Positions 58,694-64,000 of a stretch of DNA of 64,000 bases are shown here, piece after piece (the first letter of the stretch is position 1; the number at the start of each line of letters is the position of its first letter). The DNA comes from Sphingomicrobium sp. Lineage in GTDB: Bacteria > Pseudomonadota > Alphaproteobacteria > Sphingomonadales > Sphingomonadaceae. The notes under the pieces are model-generated. The model had not been told where the DNA came from. It made no database searches and saw only the letters and a program-made list of their open reading frames with translations. The position numbers and the translations under genes were made by a program. Location: positions 2,233 to 66,232 of the forward strand of contig DATFUB010000016.1 in NCBI GenBank assembly GCA_035261225.1, written 5' to 3'.

Positions 58694-59078
58694 GCCAGAG
58701 GGCCGGGCGGCCGCGGCCTCCGCGAAAGCGGGGGGCGAGGAAAGTCCGGGCTCCACGGAACTGCGGTGCCGGGTAACGCCCGGCGGCCCACGCGCAAGCG
58801 GGGGTCAGGGACAGTGCCACAGAAAGCATACCGCCCGCCTTCGGACGGGTAAGGTCGAAAGGGTGCGGCAAGAGCGCACCGCGGTCCTGGCAACAGGGCT
58901 GGCAGGGTAAACCCCACCGGGTGCAAGACCGAATAGGGGCGGCGCATGGGCTTGGTTCCGGCTCGCCGCCCGGGTTGGTTGCTTGAGGGGCGGGGCGACC
59001 CGTCCCCTAGAGGAATGGTCGCACAGTCACGCTTCTCAGAAGCGTGATGGACAGAACCCGGCTTACAGGTCCTCTGGC
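58694..59078 (+). ncRNA. rnpB: RNase P RNA (type A)
   Basis: GAGGAAAGTCCGGGCTC, CAGAAAG and GGTAAACCCC elements, 3' ACAGAACCCGGCTTA, and P1 pairing gccagagg/cctctggc. Confidence 0.97.
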
Positions 59079-59087
59079 AATTTTCTG

Positions 59088-59177: not shown

Positions 59178-59714
59178 ATGGCGAAGCAGAAGAGATCGGA
59201 CGACTGGGGATTTCCGCGTTGGCGACCGTACGGCAAGGGCCGCGACGCCGCGAAGCTGCGGCTATGCGACCGTGACGGTTGCAGCGAGACTGGCGACCGC
59301 CCCGCGCCCAAGGCCCCGAACAGCAAGGACCGCTGGTATTTCTGCGAGGCTCACGCGGCCGAATATAACAAGAACTGGAATTATTTCGCCGGGCTCAGTC
59401 CCGAGGAAGCGGCGCGTCGCGAGGCCGAGGATGCGCGCGGGGCGGCGGGCTTCCGTCAATCGGCGCAGTGGAAATGGGCCGGACCGGGCGATGGCAGCCG
59501 CGGCCGCGACGAAATGCGCGCGCTCGACGCGCTTGAGCTCGAGAGCGACGCCGACTTCACTGCGATCAAGGCGGCGCACCGCCGGCTGGTCAAGGAAACG
59601 CATCCCGATGCGAACCCGGGCAACGTGGAGGCCGCCAAGCGATTCAAGCAGGTTCAGGCGGCCTATGACGTGCTGCGTCGAACCGAAGAGCGGAAGAACG
59701 GCAAAGCCGCTTAA
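59178..59714 (+). CDS. J-domain protein with N-terminal Cys/His putative zinc-binding motif
   Basis: CDRDGC...FCEAH, EYNKNWNYFAG and a C-terminal J domain with HPD. ATG 59178. Confidence 0.9.
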   Translation: MAKQKRSDDWGFPRWRPYGKGRDAAKLRLCDRDGCSETGDRPAPKAPNSKDRWYFCEAHAAEYNKNWNYFAGLSPEEAARREAEDARGAAGFRQSAQWKWAGPGDGSRGRDEMRALDALELESDADFTAIKAAHRRLVKETHPDANPGNVEAAKRFKQVQAAYDVLRRTEERKNGKAA

Positions 59715-60130
59715 GCCGCGGTGGCGTAGCGCTCGGCGGTCTCCCGGACTAGTGCGATCATATTGGGCACGCCCTGGGTTCGGTTGGCGCTCAAATGCTT
59801 GCGCAGCTCAAACGGGGCTAACGCTTCGGCCACATCCATGAGCGCGACCTCGGCCGCCGGCCTGTCCTGCACCGCGGACAGGATTAGCGCCACGATCCCC
59901 TTGGTGATCGCGGCATTGCTGTCGGCGAGGAAGTGCAATTGGCCGTTGGTGACGGTGGGATAAACCCAAACCGACGCCGAACAGCCGCGGACCTTGGTCG
60001 CGTCAGTCTTGAGTGCGTCGGGCATGGGCTCGAGCTTCCGGCCGAGATCGATCAACAAGCGGTAACGGTCCTCGCCATCGAGCAGCTCAAACTCATCGAA
60101 AATCTCGGTGAGGGAGGGCAGGCTGGCCAT
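59711..60130 (-). CDS. sufE: SufE-family sulfur acceptor
   Basis: YRLLIDLG, KVRGCSASVW, ADSNAAITKG and LSANRTQG motifs. Confidence 0.92.
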   Translation of the reverse strand: MASLPSLTEIFDEFELLDGEDRYRLLIDLGRKLEPMPDALKTDATKVRGCSASVWVYPTVTNGQLHFLADSNAAITKGIVALILSAVQDRPAAEVALMDVAEALAPFELRKHLSANRTQGVPNMIALVRETAERYATAA

Positions 60131-60148: not shown

Positions 60149-60397
60149 CTAGCGGTCGCGGAGCGACTCGATTTCCTTCGCCAGGCTGTTCTCTTTCTCG
60201 ACCGTGATCCGCTCGAGCACCTGGAGCCGCTCCTTCAGCATCGTCACTTCTTCGCGCAGCCGAGCCGTCTCCTGCGAGTCTGCGGGTTCGCCGCGCATTT
60301 GGCGCATCGAGCGCACAGGAATTCCCATCTTGTGCCGAACGATGCTGAAGACGAACACCATCGCTATCAGAACCAGAACAAATTCGGGACCATTCAT
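60149..60397 (-). CDS. Small membrane protein with PspC/PspB-like C-terminal coiled coil (paralog 5)
   Basis: N-terminal TM helix and ERLQVLERITVEKENSLAKEIESLR. Confidence 0.85.
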   Translation of the reverse strand: MNGPEFVLVLIAMVFVFSIVRHKMGIPVRSMRQMRGEPADSQETARLREEVTMLKERLQVLERITVEKENSLAKEIESLRDR

Positions 60398-60612
60398 CGT
60401 GTGTCGTCCTCGGTCAGAATGCGATCATGTTCGCGAAGCGCCTCGATCTGCGCGGCCGTCTCGACCCCGCGATCGGTCGCGATCTTCTCAAGCACGCGAA
60501 GCCGCGCCTCGATTCGTTCGACATGCTGAGCATATTGTGCGCTTTTTTCGGCTGCGAGCCCGATCGCGGCGAGGGGTATCAGGACCCAGATCCAGCTTGC
60601 TACATTGTTCAT
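60394..60612 (-). CDS. Small membrane protein with PspC/PspB-like C-terminal coiled coil (paralog 4, short linker)
   Basis: TM segment WIWVLIPLAAIGL and ARLRVLEKIATDRGVETAAQIEALR. Alternative start TTG 60621. Confidence 0.8.
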   Translation of the reverse strand: MNNVASWIWVLIPLAAIGLAAEKSAQYAQHVERIEARLRVLEKIATDRGVETAAQIEALREHDRILTEDDTR

Positions 60613-60674
60613 GGCAGGCAAGTTCCTCTTGGCTGCGCCGTGCCGACGTCATGTCGTTACGGCAGAAGTTTCGT

Positions 60675-60977
60675 TCAAGCGGTGGCGTCGCCGCTCGTCT
60701 GCGCGGCATCCCGCGACAGCCGCCGCGGTCGCAACGCTTCGATTTGCGCGGCGGTTTGTGCGCCGCCGTCCGTGACGATCTCTTCGAGCACACGGACGCG
60801 CTGTTCCAGCTCGGTCGAACGCGATGCATATTGGGCGGCGCTCTCGGCCGCATTGCGCGCCTCGACCTCGAGTTTTTTCTCGCGGAACTTGAAGAAGCGG
60901 TTGAACATCAACATCAGCATGACCGTCGGCAAACCGATAATGATCGTCGCCAATAATACGGCTGTCGGGCCTCCCAT
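60675..60977 (-). CDS. Small membrane protein with PspC/PspB-like C-terminal coiled coil (paralog 3)
   Basis: TM helix and QRVRVLEEIVTDGGAQTAAQIEALR. ATG 60977 after GGGAGAG. Confidence 0.85.
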   Translation of the reverse strand: MGGPTAVLLATIIIGLPTVMLMLMFNRFFKFREKKLEVEARNAAESAAQYASRSTELEQRVRVLEEIVTDGGAQTAAQIEALRPRRLSRDAAQTSGDATA

Positions 60978-61005
60978 CACTCGCTCTCCCTGATCTTGTA
61001 ATGCG

Positions 61006-61329
61006 TCATTGCAGCTGCTCGATTTCGCGCGCGAGTTTCGACGGCTGGTCAGTCGCGATCCGCTCAAGGGTTTCAAGCCGGTCCTTGACCGATCCGAGCT
61101 CGGCACGGAGCTGCGCGTTTTCATTGGTCAGCAGCTTGACCCGTTCCAGCGATTCCCGGTCGGTTTTTGGATGGATCGCCATCCCCCAGCTATTCTGCAG
61201 GGGATAGCCGTTTCGGATCCGCAGCCAGGTGTGGAGCAGCGAGCCGCCGACACCCAGAGCGACGATGATTACCACAAGCGGCAAGACCTTGAGCACGAAG
61301 GAAAAAACCTGGGTGACTTCCGGATCCAT
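61006..61329 (-). CDS. Small membrane protein with PspC/PspB-like C-terminal coiled coil (paralog 2)
   Basis: TM helix, WLRIRNGYP and DRLETLERIATDQPSKLAREIEQLQ. Confidence 0.85.
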   Translation of the reverse strand: MDPEVTQVFSFVLKVLPLVVIIVALGVGGSLLHTWLRIRNGYPLQNSWGMAIHPKTDRESLERVKLLTNENAQLRAELGSVKDRLETLERIATDQPSKLAREIEQLQ

Positions 61330-61352
61330 GAACTACCCTTCTCGATTTGGAA

Positions 61353-61637
61353 TTAGCGGAGATGTTCGATTTCCAGCGAAACGCGCTCGGCAGGATCGGT
61401 GGCGATCCGCTCGAGAACGGCGAGGCGGCTTTCGAGGCTCAGGACCTGGCTCTTCAGGCCCGCGTTCTCCGTTGACAGTACATCGATCTGGCGCTCTGCT
61501 TCCGGGTTCCCGGGGTGAACAAGGCGCTTTCCGTCATTAATCGGGTAGCCGTGCCTTGCTCGTATCCAGGTGGTTACTACCCAGGCGATCGGCCCGATTA
61601 TTACCGCTGCGATTGGTATCAAGATTCCCCAATTCAT
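61353..61637 (-). CDS. Small membrane protein with PspC/PspB-like C-terminal coiled coil (paralog 1)
   Basis: TM helix, WIRARHGYP and SRLAVLERIATDPAERVSLEIEHLR. Confidence 0.85.
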   Translation of the reverse strand: MNWGILIPIAAVIIGPIAWVVTTWIRARHGYPINDGKRLVHPGNPEAERQIDVLSTENAGLKSQVLSLESRLAVLERIATDPAERVSLEIEHLR

Positions 61638-61659
61638 CCTTAATCCCCTTCAACAGCAA

Positions 61660-62076
61660 TTAGCGAAGCTGCTCGATTTCGCGGGCGAGCGTGCGGTTTT
61701 CGGTCGTCACATAGCTTTCGATGTCCGCCAGCCGCCGGTCGATGTCCTTGAACCGGCCGCGGATGTCGCGCGCCGAGCGGGCGGGCGACGCGCGCACGCC
61801 CTGCCAGAAGCGTTGGTCTTCGCGGTCGGCATAATCGAGTTCGCGCGGCTTCACCGGCGAAATCCAGCCGGCGATGAAATAGAACGGGATGACCGATCCG
61901 CTGCTGAGGAACAGCGCGGCGATCATGCAAATCCGGATCAGCGTGACGTCGAAGCCGGTGTAATCGGCGATGCCCGCACAGATCCCGTTGACCTTGCCGT
62001 TGCGCTTGTCGCGATAGAAGCGTGTCCGGCTTGCCGGCTGCTGCGTGAGATAACGATCGTAGCGGTCGTCAGCCAT
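61660..62076 (-). CDS. pspC: Phage shock protein C
   Basis: FYRDKRNGKVNGICAGIADY PspC domain, one TM helix and a C-terminal coiled coil. ATG 62076. Confidence 0.92.
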   Translation of the reverse strand: MADDRYDRYLTQQPASRTRFYRDKRNGKVNGICAGIADYTGFDVTLIRICMIAALFLSSGSVIPFYFIAGWISPVKPRELDYADREDQRFWQGVRASPARSARDIRGRFKDIDRRLADIESYVTTENRTLAREIEQLR

Positions 62077-62078
62077 CC

Positions 62079-62360
62079 TTATTCTCCGTCGGCCAGCAGG
62101 CGTTGCGTCGAATCCCGGCCGGGCAGGCACTGCTGGCGCCAATCGGGGTTTTCGGCGGTCATGATCCGCTCGATCGAGCACAGCCGGTCGTCGAGGCGGC
62201 GCGCGGCGTCATGCAGCTCGTCGAGCAGCTTTTCGTCCGATCCGGTCAGCGTCGCCGCCTGCTTCCACTTGGTCACATAATGGAAGATCAGCCACGGCAG
62301 GCCGACGAAAATCGAAACGACCGCAAGCCCGCCGACAATATATCCTGCAACATCTTCCAT
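62079..62360 (-). CDS. pspB: Phage shock protein B
   Basis: LPWLIFHYVTKWK and RRLDDRLCSIERIMTAENPDW, positioned between pspA and pspC. Confidence 0.93.
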   Translation of the reverse strand: MEDVAGYIVGGLAVVSIFVGLPWLIFHYVTKWKQAATLTGSDEKLLDELHDAARRLDDRLCSIERIMTAENPDWRQQCLPGRDSTQRLLADGE

Positions 62361-62363
62361 TCG

Positions 62364-63032
62364 TTATTTTCCCTTCGCCTTGAGCGCAGCTTTCATGGCT
62401 TCCAGTTCGGCGTCGACCGACTCCGAAGCTCTCAGTTCGGCGATTTCCTCCTCGAGGCTCTTCGGCCCCGTCATCCCCAGCGCATCGGCCCGCCCTTCGG
62501 CGAAATCGGCGCGGCGCTCAAGCAACTCGAAGCGCGAGAACGCGTCCTCGGTGCGGTTGCCGTTCATGACCTCGCGCGCCCGTGCCCGGGTGACCGCGCT
62601 TTCGAAGCGAGCCGAAAGCGCATTCTGCCGCGACCTGGCTTCGCGCAACTTGCCCTGGAGCTTGGCGATATCGCCTTCGTAGCCCTTGAGCGTGTCATCG
62701 ATGACCTTGAGCTCGGACTTGAGGCCGTCGCTCATGTCGATGGCTTTCTGCCGCTCCATGAGAGCCGACTTGGCGAGGTCCTCTCGGTCCTTGCTCAAGG
62801 CCAGCTCAGCCTTCTCGGTCCAGCTCTTCTGAAGCTCGTCGAGCCGCGACATCGCGCGGCGCATTTCCTTACCGTCGGCGATACAGCGCGCGGCCGACGC
62901 CCGAACCTCGACCAAAGTCTCCTCCATCTCGAGGATGATCATGCGGATCATCTTCGATGGGTCTTCCGAGCGGTCGAGCAGCTCGGTCATGTTCGCCGCG
63001 AAAATGTCGCGTGTTCGCGAAAAAATTCCCAT
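62364..63032 (-). CDS. pspA: Phage shock protein A
   Basis: MGIFSRTRDIFAAN, EDPSKMIRMIILEMEETLVEVR, KAELALSKDREDLAKSAL and FELLERRAD motifs. Confidence 0.97.
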   Translation of the reverse strand: MGIFSRTRDIFAANMTELLDRSEDPSKMIRMIILEMEETLVEVRASAARCIADGKEMRRAMSRLDELQKSWTEKAELALSKDREDLAKSALMERQKAIDMSDGLKSELKVIDDTLKGYEGDIAKLQGKLREARSRQNALSARFESAVTRARAREVMNGNRTEDAFSRFELLERRADFAEGRADALGMTGPKSLEEEIAELRASESVDAELEAMKAALKAKGK

Positions 63033-63080: not shown

Positions 63081-63096
63081 TTCAAGAGTCGTGCCA
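63081..63096 (-). promoter_or_regulatory. Sigma54 -24/-12 promoter of pspA (non-canonical -12)
   Basis: The minus strand reads TGGCAC-GACTC-TTGAA (GA in place of GC at -12), 48 nt before the pspA ATG. Confidence 0.8.
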
Positions 63097-63219: not shown

Positions 63220-64000
63220 TTGGAACGGGCCGAGCAATTCATCGGGCAAAGCTATGCCTTCCTCGACGCAGTCGAGCGGGCGAGCCGCGCTGCGCCGCTC
63301 AACCGGCCGGTGCTGGTCATCGGCGAGCGCGGCACGGGCAAGGAGCTAATCGCCGAACGCTTGCATCATTTGTCGTCGCGTTGGGCCGGGCCGCTGATCG
63401 TCATGAATTGCGCGGCTTTGCCGGAGAATTTGATCGAAGCCGAGCTGTTCGGCCACGAAGCTGGTAGCTTCACTGGCGCCGTCAAGACGCGCCACGGTCG
63501 CTTCGAGGAGGCGGACAGCGGCACTCTGTTCCTCGACGAGCTCGGATCCTTGTCGACGCCGGCTCAGGATCGGCTGCTGCGCGCGGTCGAATATGGCGAG
63601 ATCACGCGCATCGGTGCGTCCAAGCCGATTTCGGTCGATGTCCGGATTGTCGCCGCAACCAACGAAAATCTTCCCTCGCAGGTCGAAAAGGGGAAATTTC
63701 GCGCCGATCTGCTCGATCGCTTGTCGTTCGAAGTGATTACCTTGCCGCCGTTGCGCGCTCGCGAGGGCGACATTCCGCTGTTAGCTGAGCATTTCGGCCG
63801 CCGCATGTCGGCCGAGCTCGAATGGTCGAACTGGCCGGGTTTCTCATCGCGCGCGAGCGCCGAATTTGAAGCTTACCACTGGCCGGGGAACGTGCGCGAA
63901 TTGCGCAATGTGGTCGAACGCGCAGTCTATCGCCACGAAGACCCGGAGCGGCCGATTGACGAGATTCAATTCGACCCGTTTCATTCGCCCTGGGCTCCCG
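63220..64000 (+). CDS. pspF: Sigma54 enhancer-binding protein PspF (3' end runs off the window)
   Basis: From TTG 63220: ERAEQFIGQS..FLDAVER, GERGTGKELIA, GHEAGSFTGA, LFLDE and WPGNVRELRNVVERA. No N-terminal regulatory domain, and divergent from pspA. Missed by the ORF track. Confidence 0.95.
   Translation, partial: MERAEQFIGQSYAFLDAVERASRAAPLNRPVLVIGERGTGKELIAERLHHLSSRWAGPLIVMNCAALPENLIEAELFGHEAGSFTGAVKTRHGRFEEADSGTLFLDELGSLSTPAQDRLLRAVEYGEITRIGASKPISVDVRIVAATNENLPSQVEKGKFRADLLDRLSFEVITLPPLRAREGDIPLLAEHFGRRMSAELEWSNWPGFSSRASAEFEAYHWPGNVRELRNVVERAVYRHEDPERPIDEIQFDPFHSPWAP

What the first reader, a model, noticed from the sequence alone, without database searches (positions are those of the whole stretch)
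60149..62360. psp operon extended by five tandem small membrane proteins that share the PspC/PspB C-terminal motif
Seen: after pspABC come five co-oriented ORFs of 72-107 aa, each with one N-terminal TM helix and a coiled coil ending R(L/V)xxLE(R/K/E)IxT(D)...(L/T)AxEIExLR. The same motif ends PspC here (RRLADIESYVTTENRTLAREIEQLR), and its first half is present in PspB. They fall into subtypes: 1 and 2 share WxRxRxGYP, and 3 and 4 share AAQYA...TAAQIEALR. sufE closes the unit. Known: in enterobacteria the PspC C-terminal region and PspB recruit PspA (ESCRT-III-like) to damaged membrane, and each gene is single-copy. Inference: a diversified set of PspA-recruiting adaptors or sensors, each tuned to a different stress, lipid or partner, forming a combinatorial Psp system that may be linked to Fe-S repair.
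Basis: partly seen in the sequence, partly recalled or inferred. Interest (0 to 1): 0.72.

Follow-up and report, generated by a model that had tools for sequence, protein, structure and literature searches.

The report
PspB-like gene array extending psp operon
Five small membrane-protein genes that follow the pspA-pspB-pspC membrane-stress genes in this sphingomonad are real, old, conserved relatives of PspB and of the PspC tail; a 2024 survey already listed the layout as "PspB duplicates", but nobody has tested what they do.

Summary
On the minus strand the window reads sigma54-type promoter, pspA, pspB, pspC, five small genes (S1-S5, 72-107 aa), then sufE. Gaps are at most 62 nt and no terminator was found. 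Each S protein has one N-terminal membrane helix, predicted N-out/C-in. Each also has a cytoplasmic leucine-zipper helix with the core RLxxLE(R/K/E)IxTD and the tail xxEIExLR.

Profile comparison links the family to the PspC C-terminal zipper region (92%, E 7e-7) and to PspB (87%, E 4e-6). Pfam and NCBIfam models hit only below threshold.

The block pspF<-pspABC-[2-7 S genes]-sufE recurs in about 70 loci from at least eight Sphingomonadaceae genera. It is nearly absent from other Alphaproteobacteria.

A tree resolves four old orthogroups in a conserved gene order: G1 (S1), G2 (S2), Q (S3, S4) and V (S5). This is ancient retained diversification, not recent amplification or generic coiled coil.

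Ravi et al. 2024 (mSystems) already list the same layout in Erythrobacter litoralis as "PspB duplicates". The locus is therefore a new member of a catalogued but unstudied variant.

Function is inferred only. The proteins resemble the E. coli PspC40-119 fragment, which binds PspA and switches the response on. The proposed Fe-S link is untested.

The parts
63220..64000 (+). pspF (sigma54 enhancer-binding activator), divergent from pspA; runs off the window end
   Evidence: ORF. phmmer orthologues at the same position in about 70 related loci. The name rests on synteny and on the AAA+ motifs visible in the translation; it was not scanned against Pfam here.
63082..63096 (-). sigma54-type -24/-12 element TGGCACGACTCTTGA, about 50 nt upstream of the pspA ATG
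   Evidence: It is the only match in the window. One match is not above chance for the whole window (4.1 expected). However, the same element lies 52-71 nt upstream of pspA in 30 of 71 related loci at 1 mismatch or fewer (32 of 71 within 250 nt). No consistent element lies inside the arrays.
62364..63032 (-). pspA (222 aa)
   Evidence: PF04012 E 6.5e-34; TIGR02977 259.7 bits, above its cut-off.
62079..62360 (-). pspB (93 aa)
   Evidence: PF06667 E 3.9e-24; TIGR02976 78 bits, above its cut-off.
61660..62076 (-). pspC (138 aa): PspC domain plus a C-terminal zipper ending RRLADIESYVTTENRTLAREIEQLR
   Evidence: PF04024 E 1.8e-16; TIGR02978 119.5 bits, above its cut-off. Start chosen from the sequence.
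61353..61637 (-). S1, 94 aa, orthogroup G1 (WIRARHGYP juxtamembrane motif plus zipper)
   Evidence: RBS GGGGATTAAGG lies upstream.
61006..61329 (-). S2, 107 aa, orthogroup G2 (WLRIRNGYP, LLTNENAQLRAELG, zipper)
   Evidence: Clade support 98. Across 40 orthologous segments plus S1, from at least 8 genera, mean column identity is 68%. The AF2 model has a TM helix at 3-39, a loop, and one long helix at 57-106; pLDDT 79.
60675..60977 (-). S3, 100 aa, orthogroup Q (AQYA...TAAQIEALR)
60394..60612 (-). S4, 72 aa, orthogroup Q; lacks about 20 juxtamembrane residues that its orthologues have
60149..60397 (-). S5, 82 aa, orthogroup V (LERITVEKENSLAKEIESLRDR); start overlaps the S4 stop (ATGA)
   Evidence: Clade support 100.
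59711..60130 (-). sufE (139 aa, active-site Cys in KVRGCSASVW); last gene of the unit, 18 nt after S5
   Evidence: PF02657 E 1.4e-35. It is the only SufE-family gene in the genome. It follows the array in related loci.
59178..59714 (+). convergent DnaJ-C-terminal-like gene that bounds the unit
   Evidence: ORF. Conserved at this position in related loci. Not scanned against Pfam.

Best explanation
S1-S5 are divergent PspB-type paralogues.

Shown or directly computed:
- They are small bitopic inner-membrane proteins, predicted N-out/C-in.
- Each has a cytoplasmic leucine-zipper helix homologous to the PspB helix and, more closely, to the TM2-plus-zipper C-terminal half of PspC.
- They belong to a Sphingomonadaceae-wide extension of the pspFABC locus.
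- That extension consists of four ancient orthogroups: G1, G2, Q and V.

Inferred from layout:
- They are transcribed with pspABC and sufE from the PspF/sigma54 promoter.

Inferred from E. coli and Yersinia work:
- Their zippers pair with each other, with PspB or with the PspC tail, and/or bind PspA as the PspC zipper does.
- They would then act as extra membrane-anchored partners that set how much PspA is held at the membrane, and so how much PspF is released.
- Because they sit in the induced operon, they would feed back on the response.
For: Anatomy and homology:
- Searches give 0 K/R before the TM helix and 2-5 K/R after it, the same as PspB.
- hhalign gives 92% to PspC and 87% to PspB.
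- Sub-threshold hits go only to PspB and PspC models.
- The AF2 model is a TM helix plus a 50-residue helix.

Operon layout:
- Gaps are at most 62 nt, with one ATGA overlap.
- No minus-strand terminator lies between pspA and sufE.
- There is a single sigma54-type element, conserved upstream of pspA in relatives.

Conservation:
- 35 of 41 relatives have matches, as do nearly all sampled genomes of the same GTDB family, with 1-7 (mostly 2-7) matches each.
- 72 complete loci hold 2-7 copies, most often 4.
- The subtype order is conserved.
- The orthogroups are supported in a tree, with PspB and the PspC tail as separate clades.
- In G2 the helix is conserved on all faces, with an invariant Asn at a core 'a' position.

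Literature:
- The PspC zipper is required for PspA binding, and PspC40-119 induces psp without PspB (PMC3068692).
- The PspC cytoplasmic C-terminal domain binds PspA in the on state. A title in that paper's reference list says that PspB-PspC cytoplasmic contacts silence the response (PMC5596341).
- Ravi et al. 2024 read these genes as PspB domains.
Against:
- No S protein reaches the PspB or PspC curated cut-offs.
- The PspB alignment covers only 28 columns.
- In E. coli, PspB itself does not bind PspA directly, so PspB-likeness does not imply PspA binding.
- Stand-alone S-like genes exist away from psp genes in other families. The fold can therefore work outside a psp operon.
- The profile also picks up unrelated long coiled-coil repeat proteins.
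Confidence: 0.6

Rival explanations
1. The S proteins are silencers rather than recruiters. Like PspB in Yersinia, they would occupy the PspC zipper (or each other) in unstressed cells. That would keep PspC from taking PspA off PspF, and so raise or shape the induction threshold.
For: They share the architecture of PspB (TM plus cytoplasmic helix). They are homologous to both PspB and the PspC tail. [quoted passage not shown]
Against: Their tails (xxEIExLR) match PspC, the PspA-binding partner, better than PspB. The E. coli TM+zipper fragment activates rather than silences. Nothing here separates the two directions.
Confidence: 0.2
2. The S proteins have a Psp-independent job, for example membrane organisation or support of the co-located SufE. 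They would ride in the psp operon only for stress-linked expression.
For: Stand-alone S-like genes exist without psp neighbours in other families (L025, L027, L028, L112, L113). sufE follows the array in most related loci and is the only SufE gene in this genome.
Against: In Sphingomonadaceae the genes always lie directly behind pspC. Their only detectable relatives are PspB and PspC. No feature links them to Fe-S chemistry: they have no Cys motifs.
Confidence: 0.12
3. The similarity is only generic coiled-coil composition, or the array is a recent, drifting tandem amplification without function.
For: Pfam gives weak hits to bZIP, ZapB and similar families. The profile also matches long eukaryote-like coiled-coil repeat proteins.
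Against: There are orthogroups with 98-100 support spanning genera. Gene order is fixed. The G2 alignment (40 orthologous segments plus S1) has 68% mean column identity, with conserved non-core positions and a conserved juxtamembrane GYP motif. All frames are intact across about 70 loci.
Confidence: 0.03

Closest known systems
'PspB duplicates in the operon' variant of pspFABC (Erythrobacter litoralis, context of AOL22920.1; Ravi et al. 2024, mSystems 9:e00847-23, PMC11237479, Table S3)
   Same: Same order of bacteria and same gene order: <-PspF, PspA, PspB, PspC(+divergent PspB domain), then five small TM/'SIG'+PspB-like genes. The paper also states that the PspC C-terminus is a divergent PspB domain, which matches the hhalign result here.
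   Different: The paper gives one line and one table row. It has no subtypes, phylogeny, distribution, sufE linkage or function. This window is another genus (Sphingomicrobium-like by its nearest loci), and S4 carries a deletion.
PspB (PF06667 / TIGR02976), E. coli and Yersinia
   Same: N-terminal single TM helix, cytoplasmic helix with an RLxxxERI core, and a place in the psp operon.
   Different: S proteins score 11-18 bits against cut-offs of 25.6 and 51.7. They lack the PspB end motif (AE.P.WR) and carry a PspC-type tail instead. Subtype-specific juxtamembrane motifs (GYP, AQYA) are absent from PspB.
C-terminal half of PspC, and the engineered E. coli fragment PspC40-119 (Jovanovic et al. 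2010, PMC3068692)
   Same: TM helix plus leucine zipper without the N-terminal PspC cytoplasmic part. hhalign aligns the S family to PspC TM2, linker and zipper over 70 columns. In E. coli this fragment sits in the inner membrane, binds PspA through the zipper and induces psp without PspB.
   Different: The S proteins are natural, separate genes in 2-7 copies and lack the PspC domain (PF04024). Binding to PspA is untested.
Tandem PspB-like mini-protein arrays upstream of pspA in Gemmatimonadota
   Same: Arrays of small TM plus conserved cytoplasmic helix proteins beside pspA.
   Different: Different phylum, different motif, and a position upstream of pspA with a YbjN-like gene. Not examined here.

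Membership tests
PspB (PF06667 / TIGR02976) | Scores above the curated cut-off of the family model | tested here: not met
   Best scores are PF06667 14.0 bits (S3) and 11.8 bits (S5) against a cut-off of 25.6, and TIGR02976 17.8 bits (S5) against 51.7. S1 and S4 have no listed PspB hit, and S2 reaches only 11.2 bits on TIGR02976.
PspB (PF06667 / TIGR02976) | Single N-terminal TM helix, N-out/C-in, followed by a cytoplasmic helix | tested here: met
   Hydropathy and the positive-inside rule give 0 K/R before the TM helix and 2-5 after it, as in the window's PspB. AF2 for S2 gives helix 3-39, a loop, and helix 57-106. This is prediction only.
PspB (PF06667 / TIGR02976) | Remote homology of the cytoplasmic helix at profile level | tested here: met
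   hhalign of 29 S sequences against 8 PspB sequences gives probability 86.9%, E 4.2e-6, over 28 columns. Support is moderate.
PspB (PF06667 / TIGR02976) | Conserved C-terminal end I(L/M)(D/T)AE.P.WR | tested here: not met
   S proteins continue TD....LA.EIE.LR, as PspC does.
PspC (PF04024 / TIGR02978) | PspC domain (N-terminal amphipathic/cryptic TM plus TM) | tested here: not met
   No S protein hits PF04024. TIGR02978 hits (14-18 bits, cut-off 104) cover only model positions 48-121 or 72-121.
PspC (PF04024 / TIGR02978) | C-terminal leucine zipper region that binds PspA in E. coli | tested here: met
   Sequence homology is met: hhalign 92.0%, E 6.6e-7, over 70 columns. PspA binding itself cannot be tested with these tools.
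'PspB duplicates' pspFABC variant (Ravi et al. 2024) | Gene order <-pspF, pspA, pspB, pspC, then several small TM+PspB-like genes on the same strand | tested here: met
   for the window. for about 70 related loci. for the published row.
PspF/sigma54-dependent psp operon | Transcription of the S genes from the pspA promoter under PspF and RpoN | not testable with these tools
   Only layout evidence is available: a conserved -24/-12 element upstream of pspA, no terminator and short gaps.

The most novel reading that the evidence does not exclude
The four ancient orthogroups (G1, G2, Q, V, plus a fifth 'W' type elsewhere) form a combinatorial set of hetero-pairing membrane zippers. They would act as natural, PspB-independent 'PspC40-119-like' PspA receptors. 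Each would read a different membrane state through its own TM or juxtamembrane part. Together they would give the sphingolipid-containing sphingomonad envelope a graded, self-amplifying ESCRT-III (PspA) recruitment system unlike the single PspBC switch of enterobacteria.
Probability: 0.2. Interest if true: 0.6.

Novelty: new member of a known kind. Interest (0 to 1): 0.3.

Why it matters
How PspA (bacterial ESCRT-III) is brought to damaged membrane, and how PspBC switch it, is known almost only from E. coli and Yersinia, where PspB and PspC are single genes.

Sphingomonadaceae keep two to seven extra PspB/PspC-tail paralogues in fixed orthogroups. This suggests a more elaborate receptor or regulator layer. 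It offers natural versions of the engineered TM+zipper fragment that activates the E. coli response.

The value here is modest. The layout is already catalogued, and this window adds no functional evidence. What the analysis adds is the orthogroup structure, the taxonomic limits, the conserved order and the sufE linkage.

Tried and rejected
- Pfam and NCBIfam scans of S1-S5 gave only sub-threshold PspB or PspC hits and coiled-coil noise.
- PDB sequence searches with PspC and with the G2 profile found no solved relative.
- No fold search was run, because the AF2 model is just a TM helix plus one long helix and would match any helix.
- The search for related loci failed with the mixed alignments A3 and A2, which had no conserved 7-10 column stretch. 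It worked with a G2-only alignment.
- The count of sigma54 patterns in the whole window is not above chance: 1 found, 4.1 expected. Only its position and its conservation in relatives carry weight.
- Generic coiled coil and recent amplification were considered and rejected on the tree, the conserved order and the conservation.
- Literature searches for functional or expression data on these genes in sphingomonads found only pspABC induction in Zymomonas under ethanol (PMC3495753). Nothing was found on the small genes.
- My S-family HMM misses a fifth 'W' subtype. Copy numbers in some genera are therefore lower bounds.
Full report
**What is there.** All parts lie on the minus strand of the window.
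- A sigma54-type -24/-12 element, TGGCACGACTCTTGA, at 63096..63082.
- pspA at 63032..62364.
- pspB at 62360..62079.
- pspC at 62076..61660.
- Five small genes, here called S1-S5: S1 61637..61353 (94 aa), S2 61329..61006 (107 aa), S3 60977..60675 (100 aa), S4 60612..60394 (72 aa) and S5 60397..60149 (82 aa).
- sufE at 60130..59711.

pspF lies divergently at 63220 onward. A DnaJ-C-terminal-like gene converges on sufE. Gaps inside the unit are 2-62 nt, and S4/S5 overlap by ATGA.

The consensus scan finds no minus-strand terminator between pspA and sufE. Pfam and NCBIfam confirm PspA, PspB, PspC and SufE above their cut-offs.

The five proteins align with invariant R, L, E, I (RLxxLExI) and I, E, L (IExL). 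PspC ends in the same motif, and PspB has its first half. The stated subtypes are correct.
- Pairwise phmmer E-values at Z=2500 are 1e-14 (S1-S2), 3e-11 (S3-S4) and 4e-6 (S2-S5). The other pairs give 2e-4 to 0.5.
- Similarity to PspC and PspB is not significant for single sequences.
- At profile level it is significant: the S family against PspC gives 92%, E 6.6e-7, over 70 columns covering TM2, linker and zipper. Against PspB it gives 87%, E 4.2e-6, over 28 columns.
- Curated models give only sub-threshold hits, and these go to PspB and PspC.

**Anatomy.** Each protein has no K/R before its hydrophobic helix and 2-5 K/R just after it, like PspB. The predicted topology is therefore N-out/C-in, with the zipper in the cytoplasm.

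AlphaFold2 on S2, using 40 orthologous segments plus S1, gives a TM helix (3-39), a less confident loop holding the GYP motif, and one 50-residue helix (57-106). Mean pLDDT is 79.

In the G2 alignment the helix has a regular a/d leucine pattern with an invariant Asn at an 'a' position. Many non-core residues are also conserved, giving ERIKLLTxENAQLRAELGSxKDRLxTVERIVTD. This argues for specific partners rather than a bare zipper; that step is inference.

**Distribution.**
Almost all are unnamed or 'hypothetical', and the few named ones come from Sphingomicrobium MAGs.
- It finds 1,413 clusters at 50% identity.
- In the window's own genome it finds the five genes, the PspC tail, and one weak hit on another contig.
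- 35 of 41 relatives have matches, in tandem.
- In a 301-genome sample of the order, nearly every genome of the same GTDB family has matches, mostly 2-7. Other families have 0-2.
- In 301 genomes spread over the class, only the home family, one other family (single stand-alone copies) and one true PspB pass E 1e-5.

Eighty named loci come from Sphingomicrobium, Sphingomonas, Blastomonas, Parasphingorhabdus, Allosphingosinicella, Sphingosinicella, Sphingobium and Sphingopyxis. They show the same block: pspF<-pspA-pspB-pspC-[S genes]-sufE, then the convergent DnaJ-like gene. In 72 complete loci the copy number is 2-7, with 4 the most common.

**Evolution.** Subtype order is conserved: GYP types come first, AQYA types in the middle, and the VEK type last. 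A tree of 102 sequences gives several results.
- PspB (support 95) and the PspC tail (99) form separate clades.
- G2 has support 98 and holds S2.
- The V/terminal clade has support 100 and holds S5.
- G1 has support 81 and holds S1.
- The Q clade has support 85 and holds S3 and S4.
- Each of these clades spans genera.

The paralogues are therefore old and retained, with lineage-specific gains and losses. The alignment has few columns and many forks are unresolved, so only these large groups should be trusted.

**Promoter.** The -24/-12 element is the only match in the window, and that count is not above chance. A near-identical element lies 52-71 nt upstream of pspA in 30 of 71 related loci (32 of 71 within 250 nt). 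Nothing consistent lies inside the arrays.

**What is known.** Ravi et al. [quoted passage not shown] That is the same architecture in the same order.

No paper found here deals with the function of these genes. Zymomonas pspABC is induced by ethanol.

**Likely mechanism (inference).**
- In E. coli the PspC leucine zipper is strictly required for PspA binding.
- The fragment PspC40-119 (TM plus zipper) localises to the inner membrane, binds PspA and induces psp without PspB (PMC3068692).
- In Yersinia the PspC C-terminal cytoplasmic domain binds PspA in the on state.
- The title of a Yersinia paper cited there says that contacts between the PspB and PspC cytoplasmic domains silence the response (PMC5596341).

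The S proteins are natural TM+zipper proteins homologous to exactly this part. The best reading is that they pair with PspB, PspC or each other, and/or bind PspA. They would thereby tune PspA capture at the membrane and PspF release. Whether they activate or silence cannot be decided here.

**sufE.** It is the only SufE-family gene in the genome. It follows the array in most loci, 17-48 nt after the last S gene in Sphingomicrobium-like loci. In other genera the apparent 240-470 nt gap holds a further small PspB-like gene of a fifth 'W' type. The adjacency is conserved, but a functional Fe-S link is pure speculation. E. coli pspE, a rhodanese, is a loose parallel from general knowledge.

**Verdict.** The feature is real and conserved, and it is an instance of a catalogued but unstudied variant of the psp operon. 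It is a new member of a known kind, of moderate to low interest. Earlier notes of this scan on other sphingomonad genomes reached the same reading. They were consulted only after my own analysis and are not independent evidence.

Noticed in passing
own genome contig C19 (locus L007: 1250-2960, minus strand): There is a second psp-type cluster. It has a sigma54-like element TGGCACGAGTCTTGA, nearly identical to the pspA one, then a 63-aa ORF with a signal peptide. Next come pspA2 (78% identical to PspA), pspC2 (31% identical to PspC, same zipper tail) and a 77-aa TM+coil protein ending RIEIADLRERVRKLEAIAAGIDL ('W type').
   Followed up: partly
L101, L105, L099, L089, L077, L095 (between the last S gene and sufE): In Sphingomonas, Sphingopyxis and Sphingobium loci the 240-470 nt 'gap' before sufE encodes an orthologue of the W-type protein. 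My S-family HMM did not detect it, so arrays there have one more member than counted. In the window's genome this type sits in the second cluster instead.
   Followed up: partly
window 60394-60612 (-), S4: S4 lacks about 20 residues (about APFKMWMRIKEKQIEAQTSL) between the TM helix and the AQYA motif. Orthologues such as the N-terminal halves of P0010 and P0023 have them. The deletion is in frame and leaves a short hydrophobic segment.
   Followed up: partly
proteins P0001-P0005, P0010, P0020, P0023 (metagenome gene calls): Some database 'proteins' of 136-184 aa are two neighbouring S paralogues joined, or chimeras such as S3 fused to S4 at the shared AAQIEA motif. They may be gene-call read-through, assembly chimeras, or real recombination between tandem paralogues. 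L019 also has a paralogue with an S5-like N-terminus and a Q-type tail.
   Followed up: no
window 58695-59081 (+): Bacterial RNase P RNA class A (RF00010, 269.6 bits), upstream of the DnaJ-like gene.
   Followed up: yes
L025:3680-3904, L027:3501-3722, L028:2896-3168, L112:1501-1737, L113:1501-1752: Stand-alone S-like genes (73-90 aa, LERIVTDK...L.EEID.L) have no psp genes within the fetched flanks. They occur in other Sphingomonadales families and in one other alphaproteobacterial family. The genomes checked (G027, G036, G039) do have PspA elsewhere.
   Followed up: partly
proteins P0122, P0178, P0193, P0234: Long proteins (658-1322 aa), apparently eukaryotic, have 8-13 repeats of R(L/V)xYLE(K/R)xxGDSADKH and match the S profile. 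This is probably convergent coiled-coil similarity.
   Followed up: no
window 59711-60130 (-): sufE at the end of the psp unit is the only SufE-family gene found in this 94.6%-complete genome.
   Followed up: partly
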